Below, piece by piece: positions 1,766 through 46,698 of a DNA stretch of 51,474 bases; the stretch's first letter is position 1, and every line of letters begins with the position of its first letter. The position numbers and the translations under genes were made by a program. The DNA comes from a virus. Taxonomy: Duplodnaviria > Caudoviricetes. The stretch spans positions 1-51,474 of IMG/VR virus record IMGVR_UViG_3300024344_000022. The stretch is one strand, 5' to 3'. The notes under the pieces were generated by a model. The model searched no databases and was not told where the DNA came from. It worked only from the letters and a program-made list of their open reading frames with translations.

Positions 1766-1768
1766 TAT

Positions 1769-6309: not shown

Positions 6310-6329
6310 TGATTTTTCCTATTCTCTCG

Positions 6330-6695
6330 TTATCCACCAAACATCGGCCTACCCCCTACAGGGGTTCCAAATTTCATACTTTGTTCCATAGCAGCCCTTG
6401 CAGCGTCACTCATTCCACCCATTCCACCCGTAGCTGGTTGTCCAATTTTACCAACCAAATCGCTTATAAGTTTTTGAGTGATCGGATCGCCTAACAATTT
6501 TTGCCCAATTCCAGGCTGTGATGCCTGTTGTGGTGCTGAAGGCTGGGCTTGCGGATTAAACGACTGTATCATTTTATCCTGTTTCGCCTGTTCCTCCATG
6601 CGTTTCTGATCGCGTTTGGCTTGCTGATTTGCCATCAACCCCTGCGCTGCACTTAACCCCATTGAGGCTACCATTGGTGCTGTAAAAAATGCCAT
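6330..6695 (-). CDS. Small putative ejection/pilot protein, copy A (121 aa)
   Basis: Hydrophobic Gly/Ala N-terminus then Gln-rich coil; homolog of 41052-41339. Confidence 0.55.
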   Translation of the reverse strand: MAFFTAPMVASMGLSAAQGLMANQQAKRDQKRMEEQAKQDKMIQSFNPQAQPSAPQQASQPGIGQKLLGDPITQKLISDLVGKIGQPATGGMGGMSDAARAAMEQSMKFGTPVGGRPMFGG

Positions 6696-6706
6696 TTTAT
6701 GCCTTT

Positions 6707-10623: not shown

Positions 10624-11321
10624 TATCCTATACTTCCTTCTGTGGGCTGAAAACTAAACTTACCAGAAATATGATCGTCTGACCTACGCATTCTGTATGA
10701 CCTGTTTCCTTGCACATTAAAGTTTTGCCGACCTGCTATTGCAATAACTCGTTCCATTTCTTGCTTGTCCGACAATGCACCCTGATCGTCACCTTTTTCT
10801 TGTTTATATAAAGCAGAAATGCCATGTATAAGTGCCGGCTGACATACAGGTGCTACATATGGATTTATAGAGTCGCTATCTTCAGATTCAGTAAACGTGG
10901 GTATAGAAGAATAATATCTATAGGCAATAGTATCTGTGCCGTCTGGCTCTGGATACAGCGTAACTTCGATGTTACCGCTTGCATCTACGCCATCAATAGA
11001 AACCCATCGAGGGTCACCATTTATAGAAGCATCAGGGTCAGCCGCATCAATATCCTGAGTAGACATGATGAGCATAACATGGTCTTCAGTAACATTACGA
11101 AATGAAAGAGGAGCTACTACGTCACTGGCCAACGAATACGTGCGAGTGCCGTTGGTTGTGCTAAAAGTAGAAGATTTAAACAGCCAGTTCCATTTTTCAC
11201 GCGAGGCTATGTCCTGAGTGACTAAGTTTAAATAGTCACGCGCCCCGTCTTTAAATGTGGAACTACCTGTATTCAGACCAACCCTTCTAAGGGCAATCTG
11301 AATGATCTGCAAATTTGTCAT
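10623..11321 (-). CDS. Head-tail adaptor / tail tubular protein A, copy A
   Basis: MTNLQIIQIALRRVG start, W.WL, T..G...Y.L, LYPEPD motifs typical of podoviral adaptors; synteny. Confidence 0.75.
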   Translation of the reverse strand: MTNLQIIQIALRRVGLNTGSSTFKDGARDYLNLVTQDIASREKWNWLFKSSTFSTTNGTRTYSLASDVVAPLSFRNVTEDHVMLIMSTQDIDAADPDASINGDPRWVSIDGVDASGNIEVTLYPEPDGTDTIAYRYYSSIPTFTESEDSDSINPYVAPVCQPALIHGISALYKQEKGDDQGALSDKQEMERVIAIAGRQNFNVQGNRSYRMRRSDDHISGKFSFQPTEGSIG

Positions 11322-11330
11322 TCGCTAACT

Positions 11331-11558
11331 CTATATTAGGTTAGCCCAGGAACCGCCTTCGTAGCCTTGAAACTTGTTGTCCGTAGAATTGTAAATAAGC
11401 ATTCCGTTAACAGCGGTGAGTGCGTTCCGTTCCGTTGTCGTAAGACTTGGAAGAGTAAACGACTCAGCCGCTTTAACGGTATCTGCTTCTACAGCCCCAA
11501 TCAACGCAGAATCTCCAAAAAATGAAGCTGCATTGACTTGTCCAAAAGTTTCTGACAT
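11331..11558 (-). CDS. Small virion protein with fibre-type motif, copy A
   Basis: LTTTERNAL...GMLIYNST...FQGY..G.W motif common in phage fibre domains; conserved in copy B. Confidence 0.6.
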   Translation of the reverse strand: MSETFGQVNAASFFGDSALIGAVEADTVKAAESFTLPSLTTTERNALTAVNGMLIYNSTDNKFQGYEGGSWANLI

Positions 11559-11978
11559 CTACTGATGTGCCGTAGCCGCTAACTGATCGAGATCGTATTC
11601 AGACAAGTTATCGCCATTATTGTCCAACCAGCGTTCTGTCCATATACGAACGGCTTCTTCACCACGCTCTTTAATGCGCGATGGAGGGTCAGGCACAAAG
11701 CCAGGTTCGTGAGTGACCTCACCAACAGCACGAACATGATTTCGCACTTGGCTGTTGGTAATTGGTGATTTGCGCTGACGAGTGTGCGTCTTGTCCAAGT
11801 CTAACGCCTTACGAATTGCATTTTTAGTCTCATCACTTCCCTTGAGTATAAGGTCAGCAATTTGATCTGGCGTAACACTGGCTGTTGGAGCTTCAACAGG
11901 TGTAGTGGACGTTACTTCTGCGATCTCATCAGGCAGGGTATGCTCTTGCTGTTTTTGCGGAGCCATACGTTTTGCCAT
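11559..11978 (-). CDS. Conserved hypothetical protein, copy A (139 aa; start reassigned to MAKRM)
   Basis: Homolog 46204-46626 begins MAKRM; the upstream extension overlaps a terminator hairpin. Confidence 0.8.
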   Translation of the reverse strand: MAKRMAPQKQQEHTLPDEIAEVTSTTPVEAPTASVTPDQIADLILKGSDETKNAIRKALDLDKTHTRQRKSPITNSQVRNHVRAVGEVTHEPGFVPDPPSRIKERGEEAVRIWTERWLDNNGDNLSEYDLDQLAATAHQ

Positions 11979-11997
11979 TGTTTTCTGCTTTCTTTTG

Positions 11998-12035
11998 TAA
12001 AAACGTGCAGCAGTAGTTTTACCCACTGCCACACG
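11998..12035 (-). terminator. Intrinsic terminator after the capsid/decoration genes, copy A
   Basis: 13-bp stem cgtgtggcagtgg/ctactgctgcacg followed by T5 on the minus strand; stem conserved with a compensatory change in copy B. Confidence 0.7.
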
Positions 12036-12047
12036 AAAAATTAAAGG

Positions 12048-12794
12048 TTACGGCAAATTCTGCAATACTACACCAGCGTAACCTGTAGTGTCTGGAGCAT
12101 ATGCAGCATAACCAACCAATGGTTCTGTTTCTGCATCTTTAGCATGAACTGCGCCAGTTACACCATCACTTAAGGTAAGGTTGTTACCAGCGGCAATGGT
12201 TCCATCTGCTAAGACAGTAGCAACACCGCGAGTCTGCACCCACCCGTAATAATTTACAGTAAACGATATTGGAGTAACACCGCAAACCACATAATCTGTG
12301 GCACTTGCACCAATAAGGTTATTCCATAAACCACCTGTAACGGCCACGTCAGTAGCAGTAGTTACAGCCACTTTTAAGCCGTCATACAAAGTAAATGTAA
12401 CTGCATTTGAACTTGCAGCAGTGCTTGACTTAATACGATACTGAAAACCTTCACCAGCATCATCGGTGGTATGAAGATAGCCACCAGCATACTGATTTAG
12501 CGTAGCCGATCCAACAGTACCCGAATCGGTGTATGTAACTTCAGTAGCACCAGCCGCTGCTGCCGTTAGCTTGTTATCGCTCTCAACAATAGCTGACACT
12601 GAAAGGTCTTGCGAAGTAAGCAATCCCTGTGCAGTAGCTGTGCTGAAATACGCATAACGAAACACACGACCATCAGACAACTCTAACTTTTCACCAACTC
12701 TATGTTTTGGCGTAGACGACTCTTCGTAGATGCTCTGACCGCCATCTCCTCCGATTCGATCCAACCCATAGTTGGCGTTTTGTATTGTACTCAT
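12048..12794 (-). CDS. Putative capsid decoration / minor capsid protein, copy A
   Basis: Immediately after major capsid, strong SD (AAGGAG); DGRVFRY and YGWVQT.G motifs typical of such proteins. Confidence 0.6.
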   Translation of the reverse strand: MSTIQNANYGLDRIGGDGGQSIYEESSTPKHRVGEKLELSDGRVFRYAYFSTATAQGLLTSQDLSVSAIVESDNKLTAAAAGATEVTYTDSGTVGSATLNQYAGGYLHTTDDAGEGFQYRIKSSTAASSNAVTFTLYDGLKVAVTTATDVAVTGGLWNNLIGASATDYVVCGVTPISFTVNYYGWVQTRGVATVLADGTIAAGNNLTLSDGVTGAVHAKDAETEPLVGYAAYAPDTTGYAGVVLQNLP

Positions 12795-12809
12795 TGTTCA
12801 TTCTCCTTT

Positions 12810-12851
12810 GTCCTTTTCTTCGGACTCGAAAGGCTCATTGGCTTGAACCTT
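12810..12851 (-). promoter_or_regulatory. Conserved two-hairpin RNA element between capsid stop codon and decoration-gene SD, copy A
   Basis: Stem aaggttca/tgagcctt with AGCCAA loop; covarying version aagacgca/tgcgtctt with the identical loop at 47535-47556. Confidence 0.7.
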
Positions 12852-12862
12852 GGAATTAACTA

Positions 12863-13849
12863 TTAACTGATACCAGTAATAACACCCTGGCGTCTACGGT
12901 TGTTCGTAACTACTTGCAGGCCAACAGTTATGAAGGCCACCTTAGCCAACTGGTTTGAATTTTCGCGGAATGGAGTCTTGCTAAAATTCATACCTGACTG
13001 CATGTGCATCTTCAAGTAATTGGTATTGAAGAAATACATACGACCCGATCCGCAGTCACGGTCATACTGCACCGGAATACCACGGAACGATGGCAAACGA
13101 CCATCTACGCCTGGTGAATCGTTACCCGAAAGACGCTGATAACCAGTGCCTTCAAATATCTCTTCAAACGAAGCATAAATAGAATTTGTGGTAAATATGT
13201 TTGTAGGCTGTTCATTGCCTTCGGACGTTGCATTCCAAAGGTTAGCCATACGAATCATACCTTCATAAAAGTTTGTTCCGGTAATCGTCTTAAATGACGT
13301 ATCGCCAGAAGCATCTTCCGTCTTGTTCTTCCACCACGTATTGCCAGCTACCGTAATACCACCCAACGTAGTTGGAGTCGTTCCCGGTGCGTCAGCAATG
13401 ATGTCTTGGAATCCTAACGGAGCCTTACCTGTCTGTGCAGAATACAACGAAGAGTTAATCTGATCGCGCAAGGTCAACATACTCTGACGAGTCTTGGCCT
13501 CTAATAGCGACATTGCTGCTTCGCGTTTGCGGTTTTCTTGCTCTTCGGTAAAGTTAATCGTAATAGGCACTGCGGCGTATCTAAACGGATAAAAAGCGGC
13601 CGTGATACCATCTACCGCATCTGTATTTAGCACGTCATAGCCCGAGAAATATTGCGCTGAGTTACCAGCATACAAAATATCTGCCTGTATTTCTTTGCCA
13701 CCATTATCGGTGACTAATGCTCCACCGGAGCGAAACATGTCTAAAGTTGGGTATGCGTCAAAAAAGTTATCGGTCAACTCTTTGCGTTTGGCCCGCATCG
13801 TAAGCGTCCAAGCCGCATCCCAGCTTTCTGAAGTTGTTGTTGCTGCCAT
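12863..13849 (-). CDS. Major capsid protein, copy A (328 aa)
   Basis: Follows scaffold; DNFF...PTL, GG.EI, GY..L, F.GIPV..D..C..G.MYF.NT.YL pattern of HK97-fold podoviral capsids. Confidence 0.85.
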   Translation of the reverse strand: MAATTTSESWDAAWTLTMRAKRKELTDNFFDAYPTLDMFRSGGALVTDNGGKEIQADILYAGNSAQYFSGYDVLNTDAVDGITAAFYPFRYAAVPITINFTEEQENRKREAAMSLLEAKTRQSMLTLRDQINSSLYSAQTGKAPLGFQDIIADAPGTTPTTLGGITVAGNTWWKNKTEDASGDTSFKTITGTNFYEGMIRMANLWNATSEGNEQPTNIFTTNSIYASFEEIFEGTGYQRLSGNDSPGVDGRLPSFRGIPVQYDRDCGSGRMYFFNTNYLKMHMQSGMNFSKTPFRENSNQLAKVAFITVGLQVVTNNRRRQGVITGIS

Positions 13850-13862
13850 TTTCTATTTGTCC

Positions 13863-14732
13863 TTATTCAAAACCCAATTTGGAAAGACCCGACAATACAT
13901 CGGAGTCGCTAAGTGGGCCGTCTCCTTCCGTTGCATCAACACCTTGCGTACCACGAACAGACCTTTTTGAGGACTTTCGTGCGGAATTATTAGCTCCACG
14001 CAGATCAGACGCTTTTTGAGCGGTAATGCCTGCATGTAACTCATACGCCTCACGAACTGTATACGGACTTCCTGTAACAGGGTTAGTAATCTTTGTAGTA
14101 GCAACAATCTGATCGGTATAAGCGTCCAGATCACCACCATAAGCCTGCCTTGCTTCACCTACTTGGTTGGCTATATACGCAGTTTGCTGACCTTGCACAT
14201 AATTATTGGCCGTAGACAGCTGTTGTTGTAACTGCTGAACTTGACTGTTCAAGTTATTAACAACATTTCCTACCCTATGCTGAATAATCTGCTCAACGGC
14301 ATCTACGCCTCGAGCTTCATCTTCAGATAAGTTTGCCCTCATTGCATCTACAGGATCTACTTGTTGCTGTTGGGGTGTAACAAGGTTTTGCACCCTATTA
14401 GCCCATTCGCCCTGTTGCGCTTCAATCTGCCTGCGCTGTTCTGCAAGATCCTGTTGAGTCCTGGTAAACTGTGCCTGCATGTTTTTTGCAAGCGGAACTA
14501 ACGGCTGATACTGCTCCGGCACATCGTCTGCTGAACCACGCAACCAATCATGCCTTTGTGGGTCAAAATCTGACTGTGCATCAGAGTGTCCAGAGCTTTC
14601 TGACTGTGCCGAATCAAGGGTGTCATCTGTAAACAGTTCAAGAGAAGATTCTGTTGACTGATCCTGAGATGATCCTACATCGGGTGACGAGTCTTCCGCA
14701 CCGGAGTCCAAAGCGAGTACTGATTCAGACAT
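13863..14732 (-). CDS. Capsid scaffolding protein, copy A
   Basis: Acidic disordered N-terminus, MQAQFTRTQQDLAEQRR coiled coil, position upstream of capsid gene. Confidence 0.75.
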   Translation of the reverse strand: MSESVLALDSGAEDSSPDVGSSQDQSTESSLELFTDDTLDSAQSESSGHSDAQSDFDPQRHDWLRGSADDVPEQYQPLVPLAKNMQAQFTRTQQDLAEQRRQIEAQQGEWANRVQNLVTPQQQQVDPVDAMRANLSEDEARGVDAVEQIIQHRVGNVVNNLNSQVQQLQQQLSTANNYVQGQQTAYIANQVGEARQAYGGDLDAYTDQIVATTKITNPVTGSPYTVREAYELHAGITAQKASDLRGANNSARKSSKRSVRGTQGVDATEGDGPLSDSDVLSGLSKLGFE

Positions 14733-14735
14733 TTA

Positions 14736-15134
14736 CTAATCTCCTTCGTTATATTTCTTCTTTGCCAGAGCCACTGCTTCTTCGGGTGTGTTACCAAACG
14801 AAGGAGTAGGGGTGTCTGACGAAGCAGAGTTTGCTACATCAGAGGTTATGTGACATCGAGAACCGCCAACTGCATCGGCACTTTCTCTCACGTTGTACTT
14901 TTTTAACAGTTCTTGTTTATGACTGTACGACTCTACAACCTGACCAAAGCCTGCATGAAACTTACCATACATATTGCTGTGTGAGTTATGGATGAAGTTG
15001 CTCTTTATAAACAACATGTTAGCATCTTTTTCACACTGGTCGCATTTGATCTTACGTTTAATATTATTAGAATCGTTTTGTATGTCAAGCTGACGATGTC
15101 CGTCTTCGCATTCGTAATCGTGAAATACCAGCAT
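14736..15134 (-). CDS. FmdB-like zinc-ribbon protein, copy A
   Basis: HDYEC..GH ... C..C motif; located between portal and scaffold. Confidence 0.65.
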   Translation of the reverse strand: MLVFHDYECEDGHRQLDIQNDSNNIKRKIKCDQCEKDANMLFIKSNFIHNSHSNMYGKFHAGFGQVVESYSHKQELLKKYNVRESADAVGGSRCHITSDVANSASSDTPTPSFGNTPEEAVALAKKKYNEGD

Positions 15135-15862
15135 TATTGACCTGTAGGCGGTTTATACATTTTTCTATCTGAATAAAATTGTTGGCGTGGATTTTGTTTT
15201 TTTATTTTTTTCATGAGTTGTGAAATATCATAGTCTGGAGATGCCATATTTTTTAACGCTTGTTTTTTAACTTCACTATATATTTGTTTTCCTGTCATTT
15301 GGTCATCAGGAAAATAATCGTCTGGTCTAATATCGTTTTCTTTCATTGCGCGTTCGGTGTGTATCCGCGCAATTAATTCTTTGTTTTTTTGTATAGTTTC
15401 TGGCGAAGTAGGTATAGCTTCTTTTGGTAATATGTTTCTCTCTTTTAAAGAGGCCGTGTCTTGACGAGTATACGTTATTCCTGATTTTGGATCAGTATAG
15501 TAAGCCTCTGGAGAAACACCTTCGCCTTTGCGTATTTGTTCATCAGATAAATCAATGCCTCTTATATTTAAATCATCATAAATTCCTGTTCTTAGTCGAT
15601 TTCCCGATTCAACCATCCCTGATCCTGTTGTTGCCATTGGATCAGATTGTCCAAAAGCCTGTCGCTCAATGCCTTCATACTCAGGATTTGGCACTAACTC
15701 TCTAAATTGTCCTCCATACTTTAACGCACTTTCATCTGTGTTTTTAGTAAGCCAATCAGGAATAGGCTTATCTCTGTAATGTATACGTGTGCCTTTAGAC
15801 TTTTGTTCTTTTGGCAAAGCCCCTCTAAGCTTTCTGCCAGCATCTTTTAGTGCGCCTAACAT
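15134..15862 (-). CDS. Hypothetical protein present only in copy A (242 aa)
   Basis: TAATG-coupled on both sides; absent at the equivalent junction 49839. Confidence 0.8.
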   Translation of the reverse strand: MLGALKDAGRKLRGALPKEQKSKGTRIHYRDKPIPDWLTKNTDESALKYGGQFRELVPNPEYEGIERQAFGQSDPMATTGSGMVESGNRLRTGIYDDLNIRGIDLSDEQIRKGEGVSPEAYYTDPKSGITYTRQDTASLKERNILPKEAIPTSPETIQKNKELIARIHTERAMKENDIRPDDYFPDDQMTGKQIYSEVKKQALKNMASPDYDISQLMKKIKKQNPRQQFYSDRKMYKPPTGQ

Positions 15863-17904
15863 TATCCTTGACCCGGTGCATTCTGTATAGCCTGAGAAAC
15901 TTCTTGAGCTTGGCTACGTACAAGTGACGTAATATTACCTTCCGCTACTCCGGCATTACTACCACCACCGCCACCAGCTTGAGGTGCTTGACCTTGAGCC
16001 ATTTGGTTCAGCATTTGCTGATGTTGCTGGATATGGTTTTGCACTACACCCATAACCTGCTGTTGTTGCTGTGGAAGTAATTGTTGAAACTGTGGAAGTT
16101 GTTGTATTTGCTGATGATACTGTATATGCAACTGATGATCTTCAAAAGGCGTAACCCCAGGATCACCGCCATTAATAAGATAGGCTACGTTTTCTAACTG
16201 AGCCGCTTTTACTGCATCGCCGTCTTCAGCGTTACCCAGATATTTGTCAGGGTCTTGCACACGGAAAGAAGCCAATAAACCTTTAATGGCTTCAATGCGG
16301 TTTATTTCTGGCAAGTTAATTGTCATGTTAAAAAGCTGTAGTGCATCCTGACGTTCAAGCTGTTCCGTCAACGGCTGCATACTACCAGCCTGTATTTCTA
16401 TTTTGTATCGTATCCGCAAAAGGTCTGCCGTAACTGCTTCAAAAACAGGATCTTCCGTGTCTTGAGCTACGTTAACCAAAAACTCATCAGGCAAATATCT
16501 TTCATCAGCCATCATACGCAATGAGTTACGAACAATAGACCGATACGCATCGGCTACACGCAACTGCATCCACTCGCGGTTTACTTGTGCAAAGCTTGCA
16601 GACAAACTTGCCTGTGTTGCCGTAACTCTTGGGCCACCCATTGCCATCTGCGATACGTTTAGACTTTGCTCTTCATAACTTTGTGCATCCGACTCTAAAC
16701 CCAACTGATCTGGTGGAGGGTTACCAAAGTTCATTTCACGCATACTGGTATTGGGATCTTCTACCCATATGATCTCACCGTCACGACCGTTTTCTAACGT
16801 ATCGCCAATGTCCTGATTTGCTTCACGTTCTCTTCGAGAAGCTAAAACTACACGTTGGAAACGCTTTAACAGATCGGCTCTGCGTGATACAGACTCTACT
16901 ATAAGTGACTGTGTATCCTCAACATACGCCATTGGAGGTTCGCCATAAAACGAACGTTCGGTCTGATCAAACCGCAGTGCGTGGTATGGAAAACCACCAT
17001 CCATCAGGTATCCACCGGCAGGCTCAAACTCGCCTGTCATCATTTGTTCGCCAGTAAAAGGATCAGTCTCTGTAATTGGTTTCATTGCCAAAAACGGATG
17101 ATCTACTTCTTCAATAGGTTCATCCAATCCTTCGGCAAACGTAATACGCTTTTTATGCAGACGGTCATGCACTTCATACAAACAAACCATCTGACCCTGT
17201 TTAGAATGCTGCACCGCATTGTATTCATCGCTATGCTCAGAGTCTTGCATATCGTATATAAACGAATCAGCCTGATCTTCATCTGACATCGCTTTTATCT
17301 GCCGTCTGTTTTTAAACCTGTCATCCTCTTTAACAAACTCTAAAGGAACCATCATTTTTTCAATGATATACCGTGCGCCTGACAATTTGTGCGGAGGAGT
17401 AAGCGGATCAATGTATATATTAAAAGGCGAAACTCGATGTACGTAAGGAAAATCGTTTTCCTGAGCATCGTTAATAGTATACGGTGCAACAATATCGTCA
17501 TCACCCGGAGGGTTATATCCAAACTTTAACCAACCTACACTACAAAACAGCGCATCAAAAATAACCTGCTGCACTTCTCTTTTGGCATTCATCTGTTCTA
17601 ATGTAGCATTAGCCACACGTTCCAGTATTTCAGCCGCAAAGTCTCTACCAGGTTCCTCAACTTTAAAAAAAACATGAGGATAATTAAAAGAAACACTGGC
17701 TATGATCTGACGGGCGAGTGGATACATACGGGATATTTTAACAATCTTATCCTCGTCAAGGTTTGGAACGTCAAAATCAAGCTCATATGTCTTGAGAAGC
17801 CTACGCCACGTTTTGTGGCGCGTCTTCATGTATTTTCGACCGTCCTCTATAGCTCCACGCCAGTATTCGATCTGTCTTTCTTTCAAACTATTTGCCTTTG
17901 CCAC
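15862..17904 (-). CDS. Portal protein, copy A
   Basis: 680 aa downstream of terminase; G.LK.GY, RVSPF..Y.DP, TATQA motifs and Gln-rich C-terminal barrel as in P22-like portals. Confidence 0.85.
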   Translation of the reverse strand: MAKANSLKERQIEYWRGAIEDGRKYMKTRHKTWRRLLKTYELDFDVPNLDEDKIVKISRMYPLARQIIASVSFNYPHVFFKVEEPGRDFAAEILERVANATLEQMNAKREVQQVIFDALFCSVGWLKFGYNPPGDDDIVAPYTINDAQENDFPYVHRVSPFNIYIDPLTPPHKLSGARYIIEKMMVPLEFVKEDDRFKNRRQIKAMSDEDQADSFIYDMQDSEHSDEYNAVQHSKQGQMVCLYEVHDRLHKKRITFAEGLDEPIEEVDHPFLAMKPITETDPFTGEQMMTGEFEPAGGYLMDGGFPYHALRFDQTERSFYGEPPMAYVEDTQSLIVESVSRRADLLKRFQRVVLASRREREANQDIGDTLENGRDGEIIWVEDPNTSMREMNFGNPPPDQLGLESDAQSYEEQSLNVSQMAMGGPRVTATQASLSASFAQVNREWMQLRVADAYRSIVRNSLRMMADERYLPDEFLVNVAQDTEDPVFEAVTADLLRIRYKIEIQAGSMQPLTEQLERQDALQLFNMTINLPEINRIEAIKGLLASFRVQDPDKYLGNAEDGDAVKAAQLENVAYLINGGDPGVTPFEDHQLHIQYHQQIQQLPQFQQLLPQQQQQVMGVVQNHIQQHQQMLNQMAQGQAPQAGGGGGSNAGVAEGNITSLVRSQAQEVSQAIQNAPGQG

Positions 17905-18007
17905 CCTTTTTAAGGTTGTCTGACCCAGCAGCTTTTGGCGTTACACGAGTACCTTTTTTGCCACGGTTTGGCTTAGTCGTTGTTGGCGTACCGTTAAAAC
18001 CTTGCAT
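17888..18007 (-). CDS. Small basic protein (39 aa, MQGFNGTPTTTKPNRGKKG...)
   Basis: Read by hand; AAGGAG SD upstream; fills the terminase-portal gap. Confidence 0.65.
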   Translation of the reverse strand: MQGFNGTPTTTKPNRGKKGTRVTPKAAGSDNLKKGGKGK

Positions 18008-18022
18008 ATTTTTATCTCCTTG

Positions 18023-19402
18023 TTATGCTGAAGCGTATCGTCCTTTGCGAACACCCCAACCTTGTTCCATCATATCAATAACTTCTTGTCCGGTTCCTTC
18101 GTAAGGTCTTTCTTCTTCTGGTTTATGCGGTTTATACACATGCATCATCGCATAACGTAATTCATCTGCTGCGTGGTCTTCTGCGTGAGTGTCTAAATCC
18201 TCTGGATTCTTAGAGCTTCTTGGCAAGGCCGGCATCGTCCTGACCAAAGCATCGTTCCATCCATTAAAGCAATAAAAGCGTTCTTTTATCAACGCATCGT
18301 TGACCACTCTCCATCCAGTAATACGGTCATTGTTCGCTCTTGTCAAGTACAATCCTCGCTCGGCAAACACATCCGCAGGCGAATGGTTGATCACTTCACT
18401 TAACCTTCTTTTAACAAACATACTTGGATCGCAATACGTTGCCTGTGGATAACGACCGCCCGTAAACGGACAACTTTCTATCATTTTTACTATATTATCG
18501 GCATGTTGCGAAGCCGTAGCGTTTGCTTGGTAATACTCACTAATGCGATAGATATTCCCATCATAGTCCACAGTGTATAGACCATAAGACGTTGGAGCAG
18601 CTTCGCCATAATCCATCCCTCCAAACAAAGGCCAATGGTCAGGTATCTCAAAACTGTTCACAAGTACTTGTTTTTCATGCCAGTTAGTAAAATACTGACC
18701 TACAAAACTATCCCAATCGCCCTCTAACCATGCTTTAACCAGTTGTTCATCGCCTACACCTTCTAACCGTTTAATATATCCAGGATCTCGATCCAGCAAT
18801 ATTTTGTTGTCTGTCACCAAACTGCGAATATACATACGGTTCATACCGTCATCGCCTTCAATAACAGAAGACTCTTCTCCGGCATCAATGTAATAATCTT
18901 TTACGTTGTTATGGTTTGGGCCACCGGGGTTGCCCGATGCACGTATACGTTTTGTCGGAACCTCCGCAGCACCTGTACGTAAACAAGCCTTTAGCTTATG
19001 ATACGCTTTCATGTCGTTCCAGCTTGTAAGCTCATCCCATCCAATCCAAGTATACTGCTGACCTTGAAAATGGTCTGCATCCGCTTCGTTTTCTAAGTGT
19101 CGGAGCTTTAAATTGGAGCCATTTTTAAATATCCACTGGTGTGTACCCACCTTATATTCCGCATCAGGGTATGCAGCACGAAAAATCTGGCGAGAACGGT
19201 CAATAATCTCGTCCAACTCAGGGTAAGTGCGCCTAATCAGCACCCCTTTCCAATGTTCACCGTAGGTATCTACGTCCGAAAGGAAGTCTCCAAGCAAAAA
19301 TTCTGACTTTCCACCACCACGCGCACCGCCAAAAAACAATTCATCAACAAAAGATGCTCGAATTGCTTTTTCTTGCGGTCCAGGTTGCGGCATCCAAGTC
19401 AT
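18023..19402 (-). CDS. terL: Terminase large subunit
   Basis: Walker A GGARGGGKS, Walker B WIGWDE, SGNPGG coupling motif, nuclease GMDYG and DHAADELRY. Confidence 0.95.
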   Translation of the reverse strand: MTWMPQPGPQEKAIRASFVDELFFGGARGGGKSEFLLGDFLSDVDTYGEHWKGVLIRRTYPELDEIIDRSRQIFRAAYPDAEYKVGTHQWIFKNGSNLKLRHLENEADADHFQGQQYTWIGWDELTSWNDMKAYHKLKACLRTGAAEVPTKRIRASGNPGGPNHNNVKDYYIDAGEESSVIEGDDGMNRMYIRSLVTDNKILLDRDPGYIKRLEGVGDEQLVKAWLEGDWDSFVGQYFTNWHEKQVLVNSFEIPDHWPLFGGMDYGEAAPTSYGLYTVDYDGNIYRISEYYQANATASQHADNIVKMIESCPFTGGRYPQATYCDPSMFVKRRLSEVINHSPADVFAERGLYLTRANNDRITGWRVVNDALIKERFYCFNGWNDALVRTMPALPRSSKNPEDLDTHAEDHAADELRYAMMHVYKPHKPEEERPYEGTGQEVIDMMEQGWGVRKGRYASA

Positions 19403-19557
19403 TTGGCTTTAACCTTGATCTTTTTAGGTTTTGCAACCGGAACACTACGCCAATCTTTGTTTTCTCGGTGCAAACTACCCCAATTATGCACAATTTTAGC
19501 TACTCTACTGTCTGTAGGGTATATTTTGGGTTGATATGCTTGTTCTTCAAGTTTCAT
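19399..19557 (-). CDS. Small hypothetical protein (52 aa, MKLEEQAYQPKIYP...)
   Basis: Read by hand; overlaps terS end, ATGA overlap with terL start. Confidence 0.55.
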   Translation of the reverse strand: MKLEEQAYQPKIYPTDSRVAKIVHNWGSLHRENKDWRSVPVAKPKKIKVKAK

Positions 19558-20014
19558 CAGAAGTTTCCACTGTGTATGTTGTTTCTACCGCTTGATCCAT
19601 CTTGTTATTCTGTTTTAACCACTCATCGTAACTTTCAGCCCTTGGAGGCACATTCAATCCCTTAACCTCAACGGTATGCTCAACCTGTATGCGGTGATCA
19701 CCTACTTCTTCACGTAACTCCTTTAAAACCTTTAACTTAAGTGCTACTCGCCTGTCTTCAATCTTATGATACAACTCCTCTAAAGCTAACACCCTGTTTT
19801 TACGCCAAGCTAAAGGCACATCGTCAAAATTAGACCGATCCCGTTCAATCTCTTTCTTTAACGCTTTGTCAAATTCTGCATTCTTACGCCAGCGATAAAT
19901 CGTACCCCGATCCACTTCAAGCGTTTTAGCCACCTTGTCGTTTGCCCTGGAAGGATTCCACCTATCCAACACAATCAACTGCACTGCCTGTTGCTGTAAA
20001 TCACTTAATGCCAT
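19547..20014 (-). CDS. terS: Terminase small subunit (N-terminal HTH)
   Basis: VAKTLEVDRGTIYRWRK HTH, helical body, upstream of terL; TGATG coupling at 20014 suggests the MALSD start. Confidence 0.7.
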   Translation of the reverse strand: MALSDLQQQAVQLIVLDRWNPSRANDKVAKTLEVDRGTIYRWRKNAEFDKALKKEIERDRSNFDDVPLAWRKNRVLALEELYHKIEDRRVALKLKVLKELREEVGDHRIQVEHTVEVKGLNVPPRAESYDEWLKQNNKMDQAVETTYTVETSDET

Positions 20015-20439
20015 CAGTAACTCCATAACGCAGGGCGAGGAACATGAAAATTATCGTCCACACCTACCGTATCCAAATGTAAAAACCGCCTCGATCCACT
20101 TTGCTGCACCCCAATACCCGTAAAACCTAACTTTATAGCAGCAAAAAGCACCTGATAGGCAAACCCACGCTCACATGCTACATCTACCGCCTTACCCGTA
20201 GTATGCGACCCGGCAGGCTTATCATCCGCTATCTTAGCCGCTTCAATCGAATGATCCATAGACCTATAACCCGAAGTAATCGTCAACGGTTTACCTACCG
20301 CCTCACGTAACTTTTGTAACTTATCCATAAACTCATCGTCCAACCGACACATACCCGTTTGGGAACAACGCATCTCTGCATGGGAAAAGTTAGGCCAGCG
20401 ATCTTCCGGCCACTCACTTTCTTTGTATTCTCTTATCAT
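20014..20439 (-). CDS. Peptidase M15 family Zn peptidase (probable endolysin)
   Basis: NFS..E..C, ITSGYR, SH..GKAVD, FLHLD motifs. Confidence 0.9.
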   Translation of the reverse strand: MIREYKESEWPEDRWPNFSHAEMRCSQTGMCRLDDEFMDKLQKLREAVGKPLTITSGYRSMDHSIEAAKIADDKPAGSHTTGKAVDVACERGFAYQVLFAAIKLGFTGIGVQQSGSRRFLHLDTVGVDDNFHVPRPALWSY

Positions 20440-20446
20440 AACCGTA

Positions 20447-20474
20447 AATGTATTAAAAACAAAAATCTACGCAA
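20447..20474 (-). promoter_or_regulatory. Candidate sigma70 promoter for the late operon (leaderless mRNA)
   Basis: TTGCGT-16 nt-TACATT ending 7 nt upstream of the ATG at 20439; no SD present. Confidence 0.5.
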
Positions 20475-20525
20475 GATAAAAAAAATAACACAGCAAAAAC
20501 GTGGGATTCACAAAAATAAAACTCG

Positions 20526-20554
20526 TTGACAAATAAAAACCCACCCCCTATCTT
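20526..20554 (+). promoter_or_regulatory. Near-consensus sigma70 promoter pointing into non-coding DNA
   Basis: TTGACA-17 nt-TATCTT with A-rich UP-like sequence upstream. Confidence 0.7.
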
Positions 20555-20559
20555 CCAAC

Positions 20560-20880
20560 ACACTTCGGATCAGTAGAGGACGAGTGTAGCATCGCTACCC
20601 CACTGGCTCTACAGACCGTGATACAGTCGCTACCAGGGGGTGGGTCAACAGCGACAAACCTTGGGTGAAAGCAGGGAGAGGTGACCTACGGTTCGGTGTA
20701 GAATCGACAAGTAGCCTGCAAACCGAAATGACACACCGCTCTTTCGGCAGCTATACGAGGAACTCAACGTGACGGTCAAAGTCATCTCGAGGGAAAAAGC
20801 GTAAGACAGGAGAGAGGCTAACAACCTCCTCCGTCTACAGCTAACACACATAAACCACAGGCAAAACTACCTGGGGTAAG
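20560..20880 (+). ncRNA. Candidate large structured non-coding RNA (3' end uncertain)
   Basis: Upstream promoter, no credible ORF, GC-richer than flanks, several nested stems visible by eye. Confidence 0.5.
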
Positions 20881-21383
20881 ACACCGGTGTAACTTCCAAA
20901 GAATCTAACGTTCAAGTCAAATAGCCAAACAGTAGTACAACATTCCGCAAAATGATCAGAAACAGGGGCACGTATGGCTGAGTATATACGGGTTCGTTTT
21001 CTTTTTAGGGGCCGGCATGGTGCTTCGCAAATCGTCGAGGGCAATCCAGGAAAAGCAGCAATCTAGAATTTATTTTTATTTTTATTTTTACAAAAAAAAG
21101 GTTTCATAGTTTTAGTTATAAACCAAAAGCAAAAACCAAAAGATATTTTTTTGCTTATTAATGACCAAGGTAATTGACAATATGTGTGCGATAGATTTCT
21201 AAGCATAATATGATATTGGGAAAATCGATTGTATTGTGTTGTGCGTTCCTGATTCCACATAGCACAAAAAAGAAACAACACACCAACACCAACACCAACA
21301 CAACACCTGACGTTTATCCGAATAGTTGCACAGTCTCATATCAACTATGACCTCTTAGGTGTCTTAACTTGCCAATTAGGCAC

Positions 21384-21425
21384 AAAAAAACACCTTAGAA
21401 ACTGTCCAAGCTTTCCAAGGTGTTT
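21384..21425 (-). terminator. Probable intrinsic terminator of the leftward early genes
   Basis: Inverted repeat aaacacctt...aaggtgttt followed by a T-run on the minus strand. Confidence 0.55.
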
Positions 21426-21515
21426 AACTGTCTAAACTGTGTTGTAGTAGTCGCTAGTCTCTTATAAGATACATGACACTACAAGCAACAAATAAGAGCG
21501 TTATAAAGTCATCCA

Positions 21516-22313
21516 TTATTGACCTAGTCTTTCCATAGTTTCACAATCCCATACGCCTTGCATTGAAAACGTTACATGATAATTAGGAAACGCTAGACCA
21601 TCATCATATCTATCATTGCTCATCATGGCTAATGCATACCATGGCATCTTTGAGTAGTCGTAGAATTGAATATTTGGATGTCTTTCAAATAGTGTCTTTG
21701 TATCTATTCGCATTTTATCCCATCTAACGTCTGATAGACCATTTAGACGTGCATACGCTTGGATATGTCTATTCTCTTTTATTGATCGTTTACTAGCTCT
21801 CTTGGTCAAGTTTGCTAGCTCTCTGTCAATTTGTAATAAGAATAATTCTTTGTATTTCAACATAAACTTTGTACGATTAAATCTGGCCAATTGTGACTGA
21901 CTAAAAACATTCATTCCAGTTTTTGACAAACAACTTTTATGGCATGGCGCGCTAGCATCATACTTACCTTTAACGGACAGTCCGACAATCACGTTATCTT
22001 CTCTGTATGTTCCATCTGGCAAATAGCAATCATTGCTCCGTAGGTCAGTTTTAACACCATTAATTATTTCTTTACCCCACATACGGGAACCTACAAACGT
22101 ATCAGGTTCACCATTAAAAATAACAGCAACATTAATTCCAGACTTTAACATTTGAATAGCTTCTGTTTTGTTGCAAACTTGGTCCGCTTTACAACATAAA
22201 TTTTTTAGTCCAGATTCATCATACGGAGCTAGTTGAAGTATCACAGATTCAGCGATCTCACTATCTTTATTAAGCTTGTTATTTCCCGACATTTTAGTAA
22301 GTAAATTTTTCAT
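21516..22313 (-). CDS. gp88-like phage protein (Cys-containing, radical-SAM-like family), apparently internally rearranged
   Basis: LAP..ESG.NLC, C...CL, RLNGLSD, QFYDYSK, NYHVTFS, G.NVAV.F, DLR, IVGL..KG motifs, as recalled for this family. Confidence 0.7.
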   Translation of the reverse strand: MKNLLTKMSGNNKLNKDSEIAESVILQLAPYDESGLKNLCCKADQVCNKTEAIQMLKSGINVAVIFNGEPDTFVGSRMWGKEIINGVKTDLRSNDCYLPDGTYREDNVIVGLSVKGKYDASAPCHKSCLSKTGMNVFSQSQLARFNRTKFMLKYKELFLLQIDRELANLTKRASKRSIKENRHIQAYARLNGLSDVRWDKMRIDTKTLFERHPNIQFYDYSKMPWYALAMMSNDRYDDGLAFPNYHVTFSMQGVWDCETMERLGQ

Positions 22314-22451
22314 TTATGCCACCACCATTCCAACATGCCTATGCAACATATTTAGTTTGTATTTTCTTTCCATATCTTCAACAAATTTTTTCTTTTCTTC
22401 TTCTTTTTTAATCTGTTCAATTTTTCTTTTTAAAACGTTTTTGCGATTCAT
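22314..22451 (-). CDS. Small Lys-rich hypothetical protein (45 aa, MNRKNVLKRK...)
   Basis: Read by hand; TAGGAG SD; stop abuts the ATG of the next gene. Confidence 0.65.
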   Translation of the reverse strand: MNRKNVLKRKIEQIKKEEEKKKFVEDMERKYKLNMLHRHVGMVVA

Positions 22452-22530
22452 TTTTTACGCTCCTATGAAGTAATAAATTGTGAGAGAAACTACGCTAATA
22501 ATGATCATCAAATAATCGGCTAAATTATTT

Positions 22531-22881
22531 TTATCCATGGTAAGTAATTGTTCCATTATTTAACCTTTTATAAACTGGTTTTAGGTTCCATCGTTTGGCA
22601 AATTCTTTGACGTTTTTGGCTTGTACTGAGTTCCACATAAGTAAAATGTAATCATCGTTTAGGTTAGGATTTTTATAAAATTCGTTCAACAAATAATCGA
22701 CTACAGATTCAACATTGTCTAAGTCTAAATAGTCAATGTCTAATGATGAATGTTCAAATGTACAATAGTCAGCGTAAAAACTTATATCATCATATTCTAC
22801 TTCATCCAAACTCAACTCTGTATATACATCTGGCGCGTTATTTTTCGCATCATCAATCAGTTCTTTAAATAATGTTGTCAT
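22531..22881 (-). CDS. Acidic hypothetical protein
   Basis: AGGAGG SD; Asp/Glu-rich N-terminal two-thirds. Confidence 0.75.
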   Translation of the reverse strand: MTTLFKELIDDAKNNAPDVYTELSLDEVEYDDISFYADYCTFEHSSLDIDYLDLDNVESVVDYLLNEFYKNPNLNDDYILLMWNSVQAKNVKEFAKRWNLKPVYKRLNNGTITYHG

Positions 22882-23078
22882 GTTACTTGCCTCCTAGATA
22901 ATGAATGAATAAAAATAGTATGTATATAATATAGTCATGTTAGAATATCTAACAAGTATAATCTTATCGTTTAAATTCCTATCAATTTATTTATGAAAAA
23001 ATTTTTTATGCTACAAGCTGCCGAATTTTTATTCAGCTGTCCACCTAGTTTCAATCTATATACATAGCACGAAACCAT

Positions 23079-41036: not shown

Positions 41037-41051
41037 TATGTTTTCCTGTTT

Positions 41052-41339: not shown

Positions 41340-41350
41340 TTTATGCTCCT

Positions 41351-45968: not shown

Positions 45969-45975
45969 GCTAACC

Positions 45976-46626: not shown

Positions 46627-46647
46627 TTGTAATCTCTTTCGTTAATA

Positions 46648-46698
46648 CGTGCGACGATGGGCTGGAGGTATCACATTGTGAGAACCCACCGCCACACG
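46648..46698 (-). terminator. Hairpin/terminator after decoration gene, copy B
   Basis: 16-bp stem cgtgtggcggtgggtt/agcccatcgtcgcacg; weak U-tail. Confidence 0.55.

What the first reader, a model, noticed from the sequence alone, without database searches (positions are those of the whole stretch)
20526..20960. Promoter-driven, multi-stem non-coding RNA candidate next to the packaging genes
Seen: TTGACA-17-TATCTT points into 300-400 nt with no credible ORF. Stems by eye: gtagag 20573/ctctac 20607 enclosing gtagc/gctac; gtcgct 20626/agcgac 20650; gcagg 20671/cctgc 20715 enclosing ctac/gtag; cgag 20756/ctcg 20786 enclosing tgac/gtca; agac-ggag-gagg 20804-20817 with cctc-ctcc-gtct 20825-20836. 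A-rich linkers separate them. It is transcribed divergently from endolysin-terS-terL. Inference: an undescribed large structured phage RNA. Hypotheses include a replication primer RNA (ColE1 RNAII-like, since no primase or initiator is evident), a packaging-associated RNA, a ribozyme, or an anti-defence decoy. This is my best candidate for a new system.
Basis: partly seen in the sequence, partly recalled or inferred. Interest (0 to 1): 0.8.

Follow-up and report, generated by a model that had tools for sequence, protein, structure and literature searches.

The report
Conserved structured non-coding locus before phage lysis genes
An uncultured marine phage carries, just upstream of its lysis and DNA-packaging genes, a promoter-led stretch of about 350 bases that encodes no protein, is conserved more tightly than the neighbouring genes, and shows paired base changes typical of a folded RNA whose role is still unknown.

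Summary
TTGACA-17-TATCTT sits at 20526-20554. The same promoter type, same place and same outward direction, occurs in 36 of 37 distinct related upstream sequences (0.9% of shuffles). The block 20562-20913 is non-coding: 4-6 stops in every frame, no codon periodicity, and frame-breaking indels in relatives. It differs by 1-10% where four-fold silent sites of flanking genes differ by 10-31%. Two stems (ctac/gtag, cgag/ctcg) are broken in relatives. Three positions up to 222 nt apart (20665, 20847, 20887) co-vary on two clade backgrounds.

Weak points:
- Whole-region folding is no better than shuffles (z -0.66). Only the 3' third is significant.
- There are only 13 distinct homologs.
- The transcribed strand is unresolved.
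- RNA-library contigs show presence only.

There is no match in Rfam, phage or plasmid records. Sister lineages carry unrelated sequence, some of it tandem repeats, between the same promoter and a universal DNA element at 20969-21028.

Best reading (about 0.4): a new structured plus-strand RNA, antisense to the late-operon leader, whose strongest hairpin is a minus-strand terminator. Rivals are an RNA-primed origin, a late leader, and a packaging site.

The parts
20505..20525 (+). A-rich tract directly upstream of the -35 hexamer (UP-element-like)
   Evidence: Read. Similar A-tracts precede the -35 in other lineages (by eye). Not tested statistically.
20526..20554 (+). Sigma-70-type promoter, TTGACA-17-TATCTT, pointing away from the endolysin gene
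   Evidence: 10 of 12 matches. Both hexamers are invariant in the 9 sequences of alignment A1. The same pattern occurs 71-137 nt from the endolysin start in 36 of 37 distinct related upstream sequences, against 1 of 37 on the other strand and 67 of 7400 shuffles.
20562..20913 (+). Conserved non-coding block, the predicted RNA body. Its start is inferred from the promoter. Its end is where conservation drops.
   Evidence: 306 of 376 alignment columns are invariant in 16 sequences. Identity to W is 90.0-99.1%, against 68.6-90.5% at four-fold sites of endolysin plus terL. No open frame and no codon periodicity.
20573..20612 (+). Hairpin H1 (20573-20578 with 20607-20612) enclosing H2 (20586-20590 with 20594-20598)
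   Evidence: One compensatory G-C to A-T change, in L071. The H2 loop flips between ATC and GAT while its stem is kept. The MFE fold of 20564-20660 reproduces both hairpins.
20626..20655 (+). Hairpin H3 (20626-20631 with 20650-20655)
   Evidence: Compensatory T-A/C-G change, 6 versus 7 of 13 distinct rows.
20659..20747 (+). Candidate hairpins H4 (20659-20663/20672-20676), H5 (20689-20694/20701-20706) and H6 (20723-20731/20740-20747)
   Evidence: Predicted by RNAalifold on the plus strand. There are no double changes. One-sided changes keep G-U pairs on the plus strand only (columns 128-141 and 163-181). Support is weak.
20665..20665 (.). First of three co-varying positions (with 20847 and 20887)
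   Evidence: G,C,G changes to C,G,C in L071, L075, L076 and L097. L071 is clade-A1-like at 38 of 40 diagnostic columns. The other three are A2-like at 39-40 of 40.
20799..20841 (+). Hairpin H8, the strongest stem (16 pairs, 2 bulged A)
   Evidence: The stem is invariant in 13 distinct rows. Three loop columns vary. Energy is -19.8 kcal/mol, z -2.96.
20794..20841 (-). The same hairpin read on the minus strand, followed at once by UUUUU: an intrinsic-terminator form facing late-direction transcription
   Evidence: -21.4 kcal/mol, z -2.25, with a run of five U after the stem. In L007, L008, L079 and L080 the run has four U.
20844..20890 (+). Helix H9 (20844-20847 with 20887-20890) enclosing hairpin H10 (20855-20861 with 20870-20876)
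   Evidence: Compensatory C-G to G-C change at 20847/20887, 9 versus 4 of 13 distinct rows. The H10 loop varies while its stem is kept. The 3' domain 20760-20895 has z -2.92 on plus and -3.59 on minus.
20916..20960 (.). Poorly conserved linker with indels
   Evidence: 60-69% identity between W and clade A2. 13-nt indels.
20969..21028 (.). Universal DNA element shared by all lineages: a 17-nt core at 20980-20996 containing the palindrome GTATATAC, and GCTTCGC at 21022-21028
   Evidence: Found in 41 sequences (the window plus 40 loci), 24 of them distinct, across lineages whose flanks do not align. RNAalifold gives no consensus structure on either strand, energy 0.

Best explanation
This is a genuine, strongly constrained regulatory non-coding locus at the head of the phage's late (lysis, packaging, virion) operon.

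Shown:
- A host-type sigma-70 promoter is conserved in place, spacing and direction in every related lineage. It points away from the endolysin gene into a block of about 350 nt (20562-20913).
- The block is non-coding and evolves several-fold more slowly than silent sites of its neighbours.
- It holds hairpins backed by compensatory changes.
- It holds a three-way covariation that links positions up to 222 nt apart.

Inferred:
- The promoter makes a plus-strand structured RNA of at least about 280 nt, running from about 20562 to at least the strong hairpin that ends at 20841.
- This RNA runs head-on against, and is complementary to, the leader of late-direction transcription.
- The same strong hairpin is, on the minus strand, a canonical terminator.
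- Together the antisense RNA (through collision of polymerases and RNA pairing) and the terminator hairpins on the late strand form a gate. The gate keeps the lysis and packaging genes off until late infection or induction.
- Constraint from both strands would explain the unusually high conservation. It would also explain why wobble-pair evidence points to the plus strand in some helices and to the minus strand in another.
For: Promoter: the pattern TTGAC-N(17-19)-TAnnnT (every match has the 17-nt spacing) is on the outward strand 71-137 nt from the endolysin start in 36 of 37 distinct upstream sequences. It is on the other strand in 1 of 37, and in 67 of 7400 shuffles. There are 21 distinct versions. 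The -10 varies at its non-critical positions while the -35 and the spacing stay fixed.

Constraint: identity of 20564-20913 to W is 98.9% in L006, where four-fold sites of endolysin plus terL are 78.8% identical. In L007 the figures are 90.3% and 68.6%.

Non-coding.

Structure: the curated 62-pair model is 99.8% paired. Three pairs have changes on both sides, against 0 in all six slid controls, and the covariation score exceeds 500 of 500 shuffles. The extra helix 20662-20667 with 20845-20850 co-varies in 4 of 13 rows, and this occurred on two clade backgrounds. The 3' domain folds better than shuffles on both strands. Column-shuffled alignments give z -3.6 on plus and -3.54 on minus (the shuffle keeps mononucleotide content only).

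Terminator form of the main hairpin on the minus strand. A separate strong minus-strand terminator lies right after the upstream gene at 21370-21450. Late genes therefore need their own start inside the gap.

Wobble evidence on both strands: plus; minus (columns 17-40).

Presence in RNA libraries: contigs from runs of three studies lie on 20643-20822, 20681-20840 and 20583-20835. This shows presence only, gives no strand, and DNA carry-over is not excluded.

A ribosome-binding-site-using host, so sigma-70 rules plausibly apply.
Against: - The whole region folds no better than dinucleotide shuffles: z -0.66, and 26 of 100 shuffles fold at least as well.
- Only 13 distinct homologs exist, in two clades plus one outlier. 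The covariation therefore rests on about five events.
- The strand is unresolved: RNAalifold gives -92.2 on plus and -99.6 kcal/mol on minus, with more double changes on minus.
- No plus-strand terminator was found.
- In L009 and L075 a 97-nt insertion sits exactly between the -10 and the block. It carries a terminator-like hairpin plus U-run on the plus strand. That is awkward if promoter-driven transcription of the block is essential.
- One RNA-library contig (20372-20622) crosses the promoter into the endolysin gene. It cannot be the proposed RNA.
- The late promoter was not located, so the overlap with a late leader is assumed.
- Sister lineages fill the same slot with unrelated sequence. 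In one lineage this is copy-number-variable 9-nt tandem repeats, which looks more like protein-binding DNA than folded RNA.
Confidence: 0.4

Rival explanations
1. Late-operon leader on the minus strand, similar to the lambda pR'-6S-tR' region (lambda recalled from memory). The universal element at 20969-21028 would be the late promoter or the regulator's loading site. The hairpins are terminators and leader structures in the minus-strand RNA and are read through only when an antiterminator is present. The plus-strand promoter is accessory.
For: - The position is right in front of the endolysin-terS-terL operon.
- On the minus strand the main hairpin is followed by five U.
- Two more minus-strand terminator-like sites lie at 20873-20858 and 20751-20735.
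- The minus strand folds at least as well as the plus strand.
- The G-U-rich extension of H2 forms only on the minus strand, and two independent changes turn its 17-40 pair into Watson-Crick pairs.
- One RNA-library contig runs from the block into the endolysin gene.
Against: - No sigma-70-like promoter was found on the minus strand in 20440-21500. The only minus-strand site overlaps the end of the upstream gene at 21544-21515.
- The universal element has no good -10 that is conserved across lineages (by eye).
- No antiterminator homolog was recognised.
- This reading does not explain the universally conserved outward promoter.
- Three candidate helices would carry A-C mismatches on the minus strand in most sequences.
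Confidence: 0.2
2. RNA-primed replication origin and incompatibility cassette, working like ColE1 RNA II or the phage T4 R-loop origins (both recalled from memory). The promoter makes a lineage-specific structured primer RNA. The RNA forms a stable hybrid with the DNA and is processed near the universal element, next to an AT-rich stretch that unwinds easily.
For: - The order is promoter, then a lineage-specific stretch of about 270-530 nt, then a universal DNA element, in all lineages.
- An AT-rich stretch follows at about 21060-21200, and GC falls to 0.30-0.36 over 21001-23000.
- No replication initiator, helicase or primase was recognised in 24 window proteins scanned against Pfam or PHROGs or both.
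- In one sister lineage the transcript would begin with two runs of seven G, a sequence type that favours RNA-DNA hybrids (recalled).
- W has a G5TG3 run at 20635-20643.
Against: - No similarity to plasmid records or to any Rfam family.
- No antisense-RNA promoter was found inside the block.
I did not test it.
- Many early genes are of unknown function and could include replication proteins.
- Nothing tested here bears on hybrid formation or on where DNA synthesis starts.
Confidence: 0.15
3. Trans-acting phage RNA expressed from the prophage or early in infection (host-regulating, immunity or anti-defence RNA). It is a non-coding accessory cassette, and its position next to the late operon is incidental.
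For: - Strong consensus -35, 17-nt spacing and an upstream A-tract suggest a constitutive host promoter.
- An integrase and HTH regulators suggest a temperate phage.
- The content of the slot is lineage-specific.
- Nearly every base is conserved, unpaired linkers included. That fits an RNA with tertiary contacts or a bound partner.
- The plus strand is purine- and A-rich (A 110, G 91, C 90, T 61), as is usual for folded RNAs (general knowledge).
Against: - The promoter belongs to the conserved backbone and not to the cassette.
- No partner gene is conserved beside it.
- No target or host could be identified.
- There is no strand-specific expression evidence.
Confidence: 0.12
4. DNA-level packaging recognition region. 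The universal element is the terminase cutting or recognition site. The lineage-specific stretch between it and the packaging operon holds small-terminase binding sites, like cosB in lambda (recalled).
For: - It lies upstream of the first gene of an operon in which endolysin and terS overlap, so a cos or pac site cannot sit between those two genes.
- The universal element is conserved in sequence only, with an 8-bp palindrome and no RNA structure.
- One sister lineage has highly enriched short repeats: GTACAC ten times, matched by 0 of 200 shuffles.
Against: - The window's own block has no enriched repeat. Its top 6-mer occurs four times, and 46 of 200 shuffles do as well.
- Compensatory and long-range covariation is not expected for double-stranded binding sites.
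- This reading does not explain the promoter.
- No listed contig ends at the element, although assemblies say little about ends.
Confidence: 0.1
5. No function: a chance promoter match and chance stems in a spacer, or an overlooked small protein gene.
For: - The promoter count in the window alone is at chance level.
- The whole-region folding z-score is not significant.
- Two minus-strand ORFs of 67-68 aa exist.
Against: - The block is far more conserved than silent sites.
- The promoter is kept in 36 of 37 distinct relatives.
- Covariation is present.
- Frames are broken by indels and show no periodicity.
Confidence: 0.03

Closest known systems
Phage cis-antisense and convergent-transcription regulators (lambda oop and paQ RNAs, P22 sar RNA, the 186/P2 face-to-face promoters). 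Recalled; no sequence compared.
   Same: A host-type promoter inside a phage regulatory gap fires against a phage transcription unit and makes a non-coding RNA.
   Different: The recalled examples are mostly short (tens of nt to about 200 nt) and are not known for multi-hairpin structures with long-range covariation. Here the block is about 350 nt, sits before the lysis-packaging operon, and no opposing transcript has been mapped. No Rfam family matched.
Lambda late regulatory region: pR', the qut site, 6S RNA and tR' upstream of the lysis genes (recalled)
   Same: A gene-free regulatory stretch directly upstream of lysis and terminase genes. A strong hairpin with a U-run lies on the late strand about 140-200 nt downstream of a conserved DNA element.
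   Different: The only promoter supported here points the opposite way. No Q-like protein was recognised. The leader would be about 500 nt long and highly conserved.
ColE1-type RNA II primer with RNA I control (recalled; Rfam was scanned)
   Same: A sigma-70 promoter is followed by a structured, lineage-specific RNA of several hundred nt, then a conserved DNA element. No initiator protein was recognised.
   Different: No sequence or model match. No antisense promoter was found. The context is a tailed phage, and no test of hybrid formation or of the DNA start site was possible.
Large structured RNAs linked to phages and prophages (GOLLD, ROOL) and the phi29 packaging RNA. All three names are recalled; I also recall them as Rfam families and did not check that against the library.
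   Same: Multi-stem non-coding RNA of several hundred nt in a phage genome. In the phi29 case it lies near packaging genes.
   Different: None of the 4227 Rfam models reached its gathering score anywhere in the window. At E up to 10, none matched inside 20526-20957.

Membership tests
Any described RNA family (Rfam 15, 4227 models) | Score at or above the family's gathering threshold | tested here: not met
   0 matches in the whole window. With E up to 10 on 20400-21520 there were 8 weak matches, all at 20958-21494, best E 0.053, and all far below gathering.
Sigma-70-type bacterial promoter | -35 and -10 hexamers with a 16-18 nt spacer, A at -10 position 2 and T at position 6 | tested here: met
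   TTGACA-17-TATCTT, 10 of 12 matches.
Sigma-70-type bacterial promoter | Conserved in position and direction among relatives while the surrounding sequence diverges | tested here: met
   36 of 37 distinct upstream sequences carry it. 1 of 37 carries it on the other strand, and 67 of 7400 shuffles do.
Sigma-70-type bacterial promoter | Mapped transcription start | not testable with these tools
   Only unstranded contigs of RNA libraries were available.
Structured non-coding RNA | Compensatory base-pair changes above controls | tested here: met
   3 of 62 pairs have changes on both sides, against 0 in six slid controls. One further co-varying helix. About five independent events in total, so statistical power is low.
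Structured non-coding RNA | Folding more stable than shuffled sequence | tested here: inconclusive
   Whole region z -0.66 and -0.77. The 3' domain gives z -2.92 and -3.59. The 5' and middle parts are not significant.
Structured non-coding RNA | Transcribed, with a defined strand | tested here: inconclusive
   Contigs from RNA libraries of three studies lie on 20583-20840, and one contig crosses the promoter. There is no strand information, and DNA carry-over is not excluded.
Protein-coding gene | An open frame kept in relatives, with third-position bias in substitutions | tested here: not met
   4-6 stops per frame and substitution phases of 19/23/20. 1- and 2-nt indels. No ORF of 60 aa or more was listed at that place in L009 or L011.
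Intrinsic (factor-independent) terminator, minus strand, at 20794-20841 | A G+C-rich hairpin followed directly by a run of U | tested here: met
   -21.4 kcal/mol hairpin, then UUUUU. The simple scan missed it because the stem has bulges. Its function is not tested.
ColE1-type primer RNA (RNA II) | An antisense RNA I gene within the 5' part of the primer | tested here: not met
   No minus-strand promoter-like site lies inside 20562-20960. The consensus scan is crude.
ColE1-type primer RNA (RNA II) | A persistent RNA-DNA hybrid and processing at the origin, with DNA synthesis starting there | not testable with these tools
   Needs replication-intermediate or in vitro assays.
Iteron or terminase-binding repeat array | A short motif repeated more often than in shuffles | tested here: not met
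   In W 20556-20960 the top 6-mer occurs four times, and 46 of 200 shuffles do as well. By contrast, sister lineage L029 has GTACAC ten times, matched by 0 of 200 shuffles.

The most novel reading that the evidence does not exclude
The slot holds a phage version of a ColE1-like replication and incompatibility module. A conserved host promoter makes a lineage-specific structured primer RNA. That RNA is converted into a DNA start at the universal element beside an AT-rich unwinding stretch. A 35-kb tailed phage with no recognisable replication genes would thus copy itself with host enzymes only. The swapped RNA cassettes would decide which co-infecting relatives can share a cell.
Probability: 0.15. 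Interest if true: 0.85.

Novelty: new variant of a known kind. Interest (0 to 1): 0.55.

Why it matters
Phage genomes are packed with genes, so a kilobase with none, kept in every relative, is a signal in itself. This gap holds one of the best-conserved stretches of the phage, led by a promoter that has held its place while everything between it and a universal DNA element was swapped between lineages.

If the product is a folded antisense RNA that gates lysis and packaging, it adds an RNA layer to late-gene control in an abundant marine phage group. At least half of the sampled words of 20440-21060 are held by 16 sequencing runs (11 studies across all 20 runs that hold any part of it).

If it is a primer RNA, it would explain how a phage with no recognisable replication genes replicates. 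Either way it is a concrete new RNA family candidate with a testable secondary structure, and a case where both DNA strands may carry structural constraint.

Tried and rejected
Known RNA families: Rfam gave nothing at gathering scores, and only noise outside the block in E-value mode. There is no tRNA or tmRNA in the window.

Similar DNA elsewhere:
- No match in 50,697 phage records or 72,556 plasmid records.
- The large terminase is at most 36% identical to any cultured phage in the rows listed.
- Looking for a host or prophage failed. The terminase search of genome contigs confirmed none of 22 candidate stretches. A pattern of the universal element found one unrelated coding sequence, L099.
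- Short probes from the block found only the eight contigs already known, plus chance hits L062, L100 and L101.

Homology of the block in sister lineages: blastn found only the universal element. nhmmer with the group profile found nothing better than E = 4.

I built no covariance model. The alignment has 376 columns, the sequences are 90% or more alike, and a structure-only search of unalignable lineages seemed unlikely to help.

RNA structure in the universal element: RNAalifold gave none on either strand.

Repeat arrays in the window's block: not enriched.

Protein coding: rejected.

Partner gene: the genes to the right differ between lineages. They are GP88-family in W, an L5 gp82-like protein in L029, and no family hit in L006.

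RNA-library runs: in the 5 kb laid (18000-23000), the four runs gave no exact-match contig on endolysin, terS or the GP88 gene. The runs were picked by words from 20440-21060 and the depths are 2-10, so this silence proves nothing. I do not use it as evidence.
- The right ends of three contigs (20822, 20835, 20840) cluster at the main hairpin. They also lie at or near the polymorphic loop columns, and no DNA run was laid beside them, so I do not read them as an RNA end.
- Contigs on 21263-21307 are low-complexity CA-repeat matches with loose ends and are not this phage.

Literature: one full-text search (only the listing of titles and abstract starts was seen) returned nothing on this kind of locus. 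I do not claim that it is absent from print. No supplements were consulted.

Earlier notes of this scan: none by sequence.
Full report
Context. The window is one IMG/VR virus record. It holds about 1.45 copies of a phage unit of roughly 35 kb: 1-17493 matches 35482-51473 at about 80-87% identity. The record is therefore an assembly that runs on into a related strain. The finding lies in the single-copy part. Its left neighbours, all on the minus strand, are an M15-peptidase endolysin (20014-20439), a small terminase (19547-20026) and a large terminase (18023-19402). Its right neighbour is a GP88-family gene (21516-22313, minus strand). The gap 20440-21515 is 1076 nt. Many genes carry Shine-Dalgarno-like motifs, so sigma-70 rules plausibly apply to the host. 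No cultured relative exists; the large terminase is at most 36% identical in the rows listed.

The observation. In this window alone the promoter is not above chance, with 3 sites found against 2.3 expected. The whole region folds no better than dinucleotide shuffles, at z -0.66 on plus and -0.77 on minus. Only the 3' third, 20760-20895, is significantly stable: z -2.92 on plus (2 of 200 shuffles as good) and -3.59 on minus (0 of 200). The 5' third gives about -1 and the middle about 0.

Relatives. The large terminase brought 58 loci from viral contigs. The endolysin brought 31 loci from metagenome contigs. The same non-coding sequence (group A) is present in 16 loci that span the block, 15 of them with distinct sequence. 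Added to the window, these make the 16-row alignment A2. They fall into two clades plus one divergent member, L071. In more distant relatives (large terminase 77-90% identical) only a piece of about 60 nt at 20969-21028 can be aligned.

Constraint. In alignment A2 (16 sequences, 13 distinct rows, W 20564-20925), 306 of 376 columns are invariant. Identity of 20564-20913 to W is 98.9% in L006, against 78.8% at 231 four-fold degenerate sites of endolysin plus large terminase. It is 90.0-90.3% in L007, L008, L009 and L011, against 68.6-73.2%. The block is at least as conserved as the best-conserved neighbouring gene, and conservation falls to 60-69% at 20916-20960. The block is not coding. All six frames have 4-6 stops, and 62 substituted columns split 19/23/20 over the codon phases. 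Relatives have 1- and 2-nt indels. No ORF of 60 aa or more was listed in L009 or L011 at the place of the minus-strand ORFs.

Promoter. The 260 nt upstream of the endolysin start were read on the outward strand. The pattern TTGAC-N(17-19)-TAnnnT occurs at 71-137 nt in 36 of 37 distinct upstream sequences, and all 21 distinct versions have the 17-nt spacing. It occurs in 1 of 37 on the opposite strand and in 67 of 7400 mononucleotide shuffles. The one miss, L087, has TTGAAA-17-TAAGTT at the same place. The -10 varies at its non-critical positions, while the -35, the spacing, position 2 (A) and position 6 (T) are kept. The independent scan tool finds the same site in L029, L018 and L026. This is strong comparative evidence for a working promoter that points away from the late operon.

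Structure. I tested a curated set of nine local helices (62 pairs) on A2.
- 99.8% of cells pair.
- Three pairs change on both sides: 20576/20609, 20627/20654 and 20847/20887. None does in any of six slid controls.
- Three more pairs change on one side while keeping a G-U pair on the plus strand. Two cells are broken.
- Loops vary where stems do not. The H2 loop flips between ATC and GAT, and the loops of the 20799-20841 and 20855-20876 hairpins change at 3 and 6 columns.

The most telling signal is a triple covariation. Positions 20665, 20847 and 20887 read G, C, G in 12 sequences and C, G, C in L071, L075, L076 and L097. L071 is A1-like at 38 of 40 clade-diagnostic columns, and the other three are A2-like at 39-40 of 40. 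The triple state therefore sits on both backgrounds. The trinucleotide at 20845-20847 can pair either with 20887-20889 (helix H9) or with 20665-20667. That suggests alternative pairings or a long-range contact. Double-stranded DNA has no use for this.

Strand. This is unresolved. RNAalifold gives -92.2 kcal/mol with 1 double change on plus, and -99.6 with 3 double changes on minus. Column-shuffle z-scores are -3.6 and -3.54 (the shuffle keeps mononucleotide content only, so it is lenient).

For plus:
- The promoter points this way.
- G-U pairs in H4, H5, H6 and H10 would be A-C mismatches on minus. Those helices came from the plus-strand prediction and have no double changes.
- The composition is A- and purine-rich.

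For minus:
- An extension of H2 forms only with G-U pairs on minus, and two independent changes turn its 17-40 pair into Watson-Crick pairs.
- The 20799-20841 hairpin is followed at once by five U on minus.
- Two more terminator-like sites were found.
- The 3' domain folds slightly better on minus.

Expression. The DNA is widespread. 16 runs hold at least half of the sampled words, and all 20 holders come from 11 studies. In four runs filed as RNA, one of them only a guess, contigs lie on these stretches:
- 20643-20822: exact match, depth 5.
- 20681-20840: exact match, depth 2.7.
- 20583-20835: clade-A2 type, depth 10.1.
- 20372-20622: depth 2.3. This contig crosses the promoter into the endolysin gene.
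These contigs carry no strand, and DNA carry-over cannot be excluded. They show presence in RNA libraries and nothing more.

The wider locus. All lineages share the same order. It runs from the endolysin start, through about 70-140 nt, to the outward promoter, then a lineage-specific non-coding stretch of about 270-530 nt, then the universal element. The universal element has a 17-nt core containing an 8-bp palindrome, and a second 7-nt box about 25 nt further on. It has no consensus RNA structure on either strand, so I read it as a protein-recognition site in DNA. The 7-nt box, read on the minus strand, matches a DNA mini-hairpin motif that I recall from the literature on single-strand phage origins. 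This is recall, not a test.

One sister lineage fills the slot with two G7 runs right after the -10. These are followed by 9-nt tandem repeats whose copy number differs between strains, and by repeated GTCAC motifs. The window's own block has no enriched repeat. A strong minus-strand terminator (-24.8 kcal/mol, seven U, z -3.5) follows the GP88 gene at 21370-21450. L029 has an equivalent one after its upstream gene. The late operon must therefore start somewhere inside the gap. In L009 and L075 a 97-nt insertion with two hairpins sits between 20561 and 20562, at the expected transcription start. The second hairpin is terminator-like on the plus strand.

Replication genes. 24 window proteins were scanned against Pfam or PHROGs or both. 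None matched a replication initiator, helicase, primase or polymerase. The recognised early functions are a C5 methylase, a tyrosine recombinase, HTH and MerR regulators, and RusA. Most early genes have no family.

Interpretation. Four things are shown: a functional promoter, a strongly constrained non-coding block, real hairpins, and at least one long-range contact. The rest is inferred. I favour (0.4) a plus-strand structured RNA made from the conserved promoter. It opposes, and is complementary to, the late-direction leader, and the main hairpin doubles as a late-strand terminator. This uses every mapped feature. It also accounts for the unusually high conservation and for wobble evidence on both strands, because both transcripts would be under selection.

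The rivals are ranked in the Rival explanations section:
- a minus-strand late leader with read-through control (0.2);
- an RNA-primed origin and incompatibility cassette (0.15);
- a trans-acting RNA (0.12);
- a packaging recognition region (0.1);
- chance or a missed gene (0.03).
The repeat-filled slots of sister lineages and the insertion in L009 and L075 are the main facts that my preferred reading explains poorly.

Comparison with known systems. It works most like phage antisense or convergent-transcription regulators, and it sits where lambda keeps its late control region. It resembles ColE1 RNA II in layout. All of these comparisons are recalled, not tested by sequence. It is a member of none: no Rfam family matches, and the defining features that could be tested for ColE1-type primers and for repeat arrays were not met.

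Verdict. This is a real and interesting new non-coding locus. It is very likely functional (about 0.9) and probably transcribed from the conserved promoter (about 0.6). The strand and the role remain to be settled by stranded RNA data.

Noticed in passing
window 20969-21028: A sequence element shared by all related lineages, although their flanks do not align. It has a 17-nt core with the palindrome GTATATAC (20980-20996) and a second box, GCTTCGC (21022-21028). There is no consensus RNA structure on either strand. It is a candidate late-promoter or regulator site, terminase site, or origin component.
   Followed up: partly
L009:3134-3240 and the same place in L075 (between window 20561 and 20562): A 97-nt insertion right after the promoter's -10. 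It has two related hairpins. The second is followed by a short U-run on the promoter's strand (z -3.06). It may be a small mobile element or an attenuator.
   Followed up: partly
L028, L029, L031, L033, L037, L081, L082, L087, L091, L092 and L094-L096, between the promoter and the universal element: A sister lineage has two runs of seven G right after the -10. These are followed by 9-nt tandem repeats (GTGTACCCA-like) whose copy number differs between strains, and by repeated GTCAC motifs.
   Followed up: partly
window 21370-21450, minus strand: A strong terminator-like hairpin with seven U right after the GP88-family gene (-24.8 kcal/mol, z -3.5). It was missed by the simple scan, probably because its loop is long.
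   Followed up: yes
window 21060-21200 and 21001-23000: A very AT-rich stretch with T5A-type repeats, and a low-GC island (0.30-0.36) that holds the GP88-family gene and a 116-aa gene. Other lineages carry different genes there, so it looks like an inserted accessory module.
   Followed up: no
window 21263-21307: A CA-rich hexamer repeat (CAACAC-like). It attracts many unrelated low-complexity contigs from RNA libraries. Similar CA-rich tracts follow the universal element in other lineages. It could be a Rho-loading site for plus-strand transcripts.
   Followed up: no
window 20591-20593 (alignment A2 columns 28-30): The 3-nt loop of a perfect hairpin is ATC in ten sequences and its reverse complement GAT in six, without following the clades. 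This is a flip of the loop within an inverted repeat.
   Followed up: partly
window 1-17493 versus 35482-51473: The record holds two versions of the structural module at about 80-87% identity. It looks like an assembly that runs from one strain into a related one rather than a single genome.
   Followed up: partly
about 650-760 nt upstream of the endolysin start in L029, L033, L013, L026, L023 and L042 (outward orientation, as printed): ATTGATTG-like motifs recur to the right of the universal element in other lineages.
   Followed up: no
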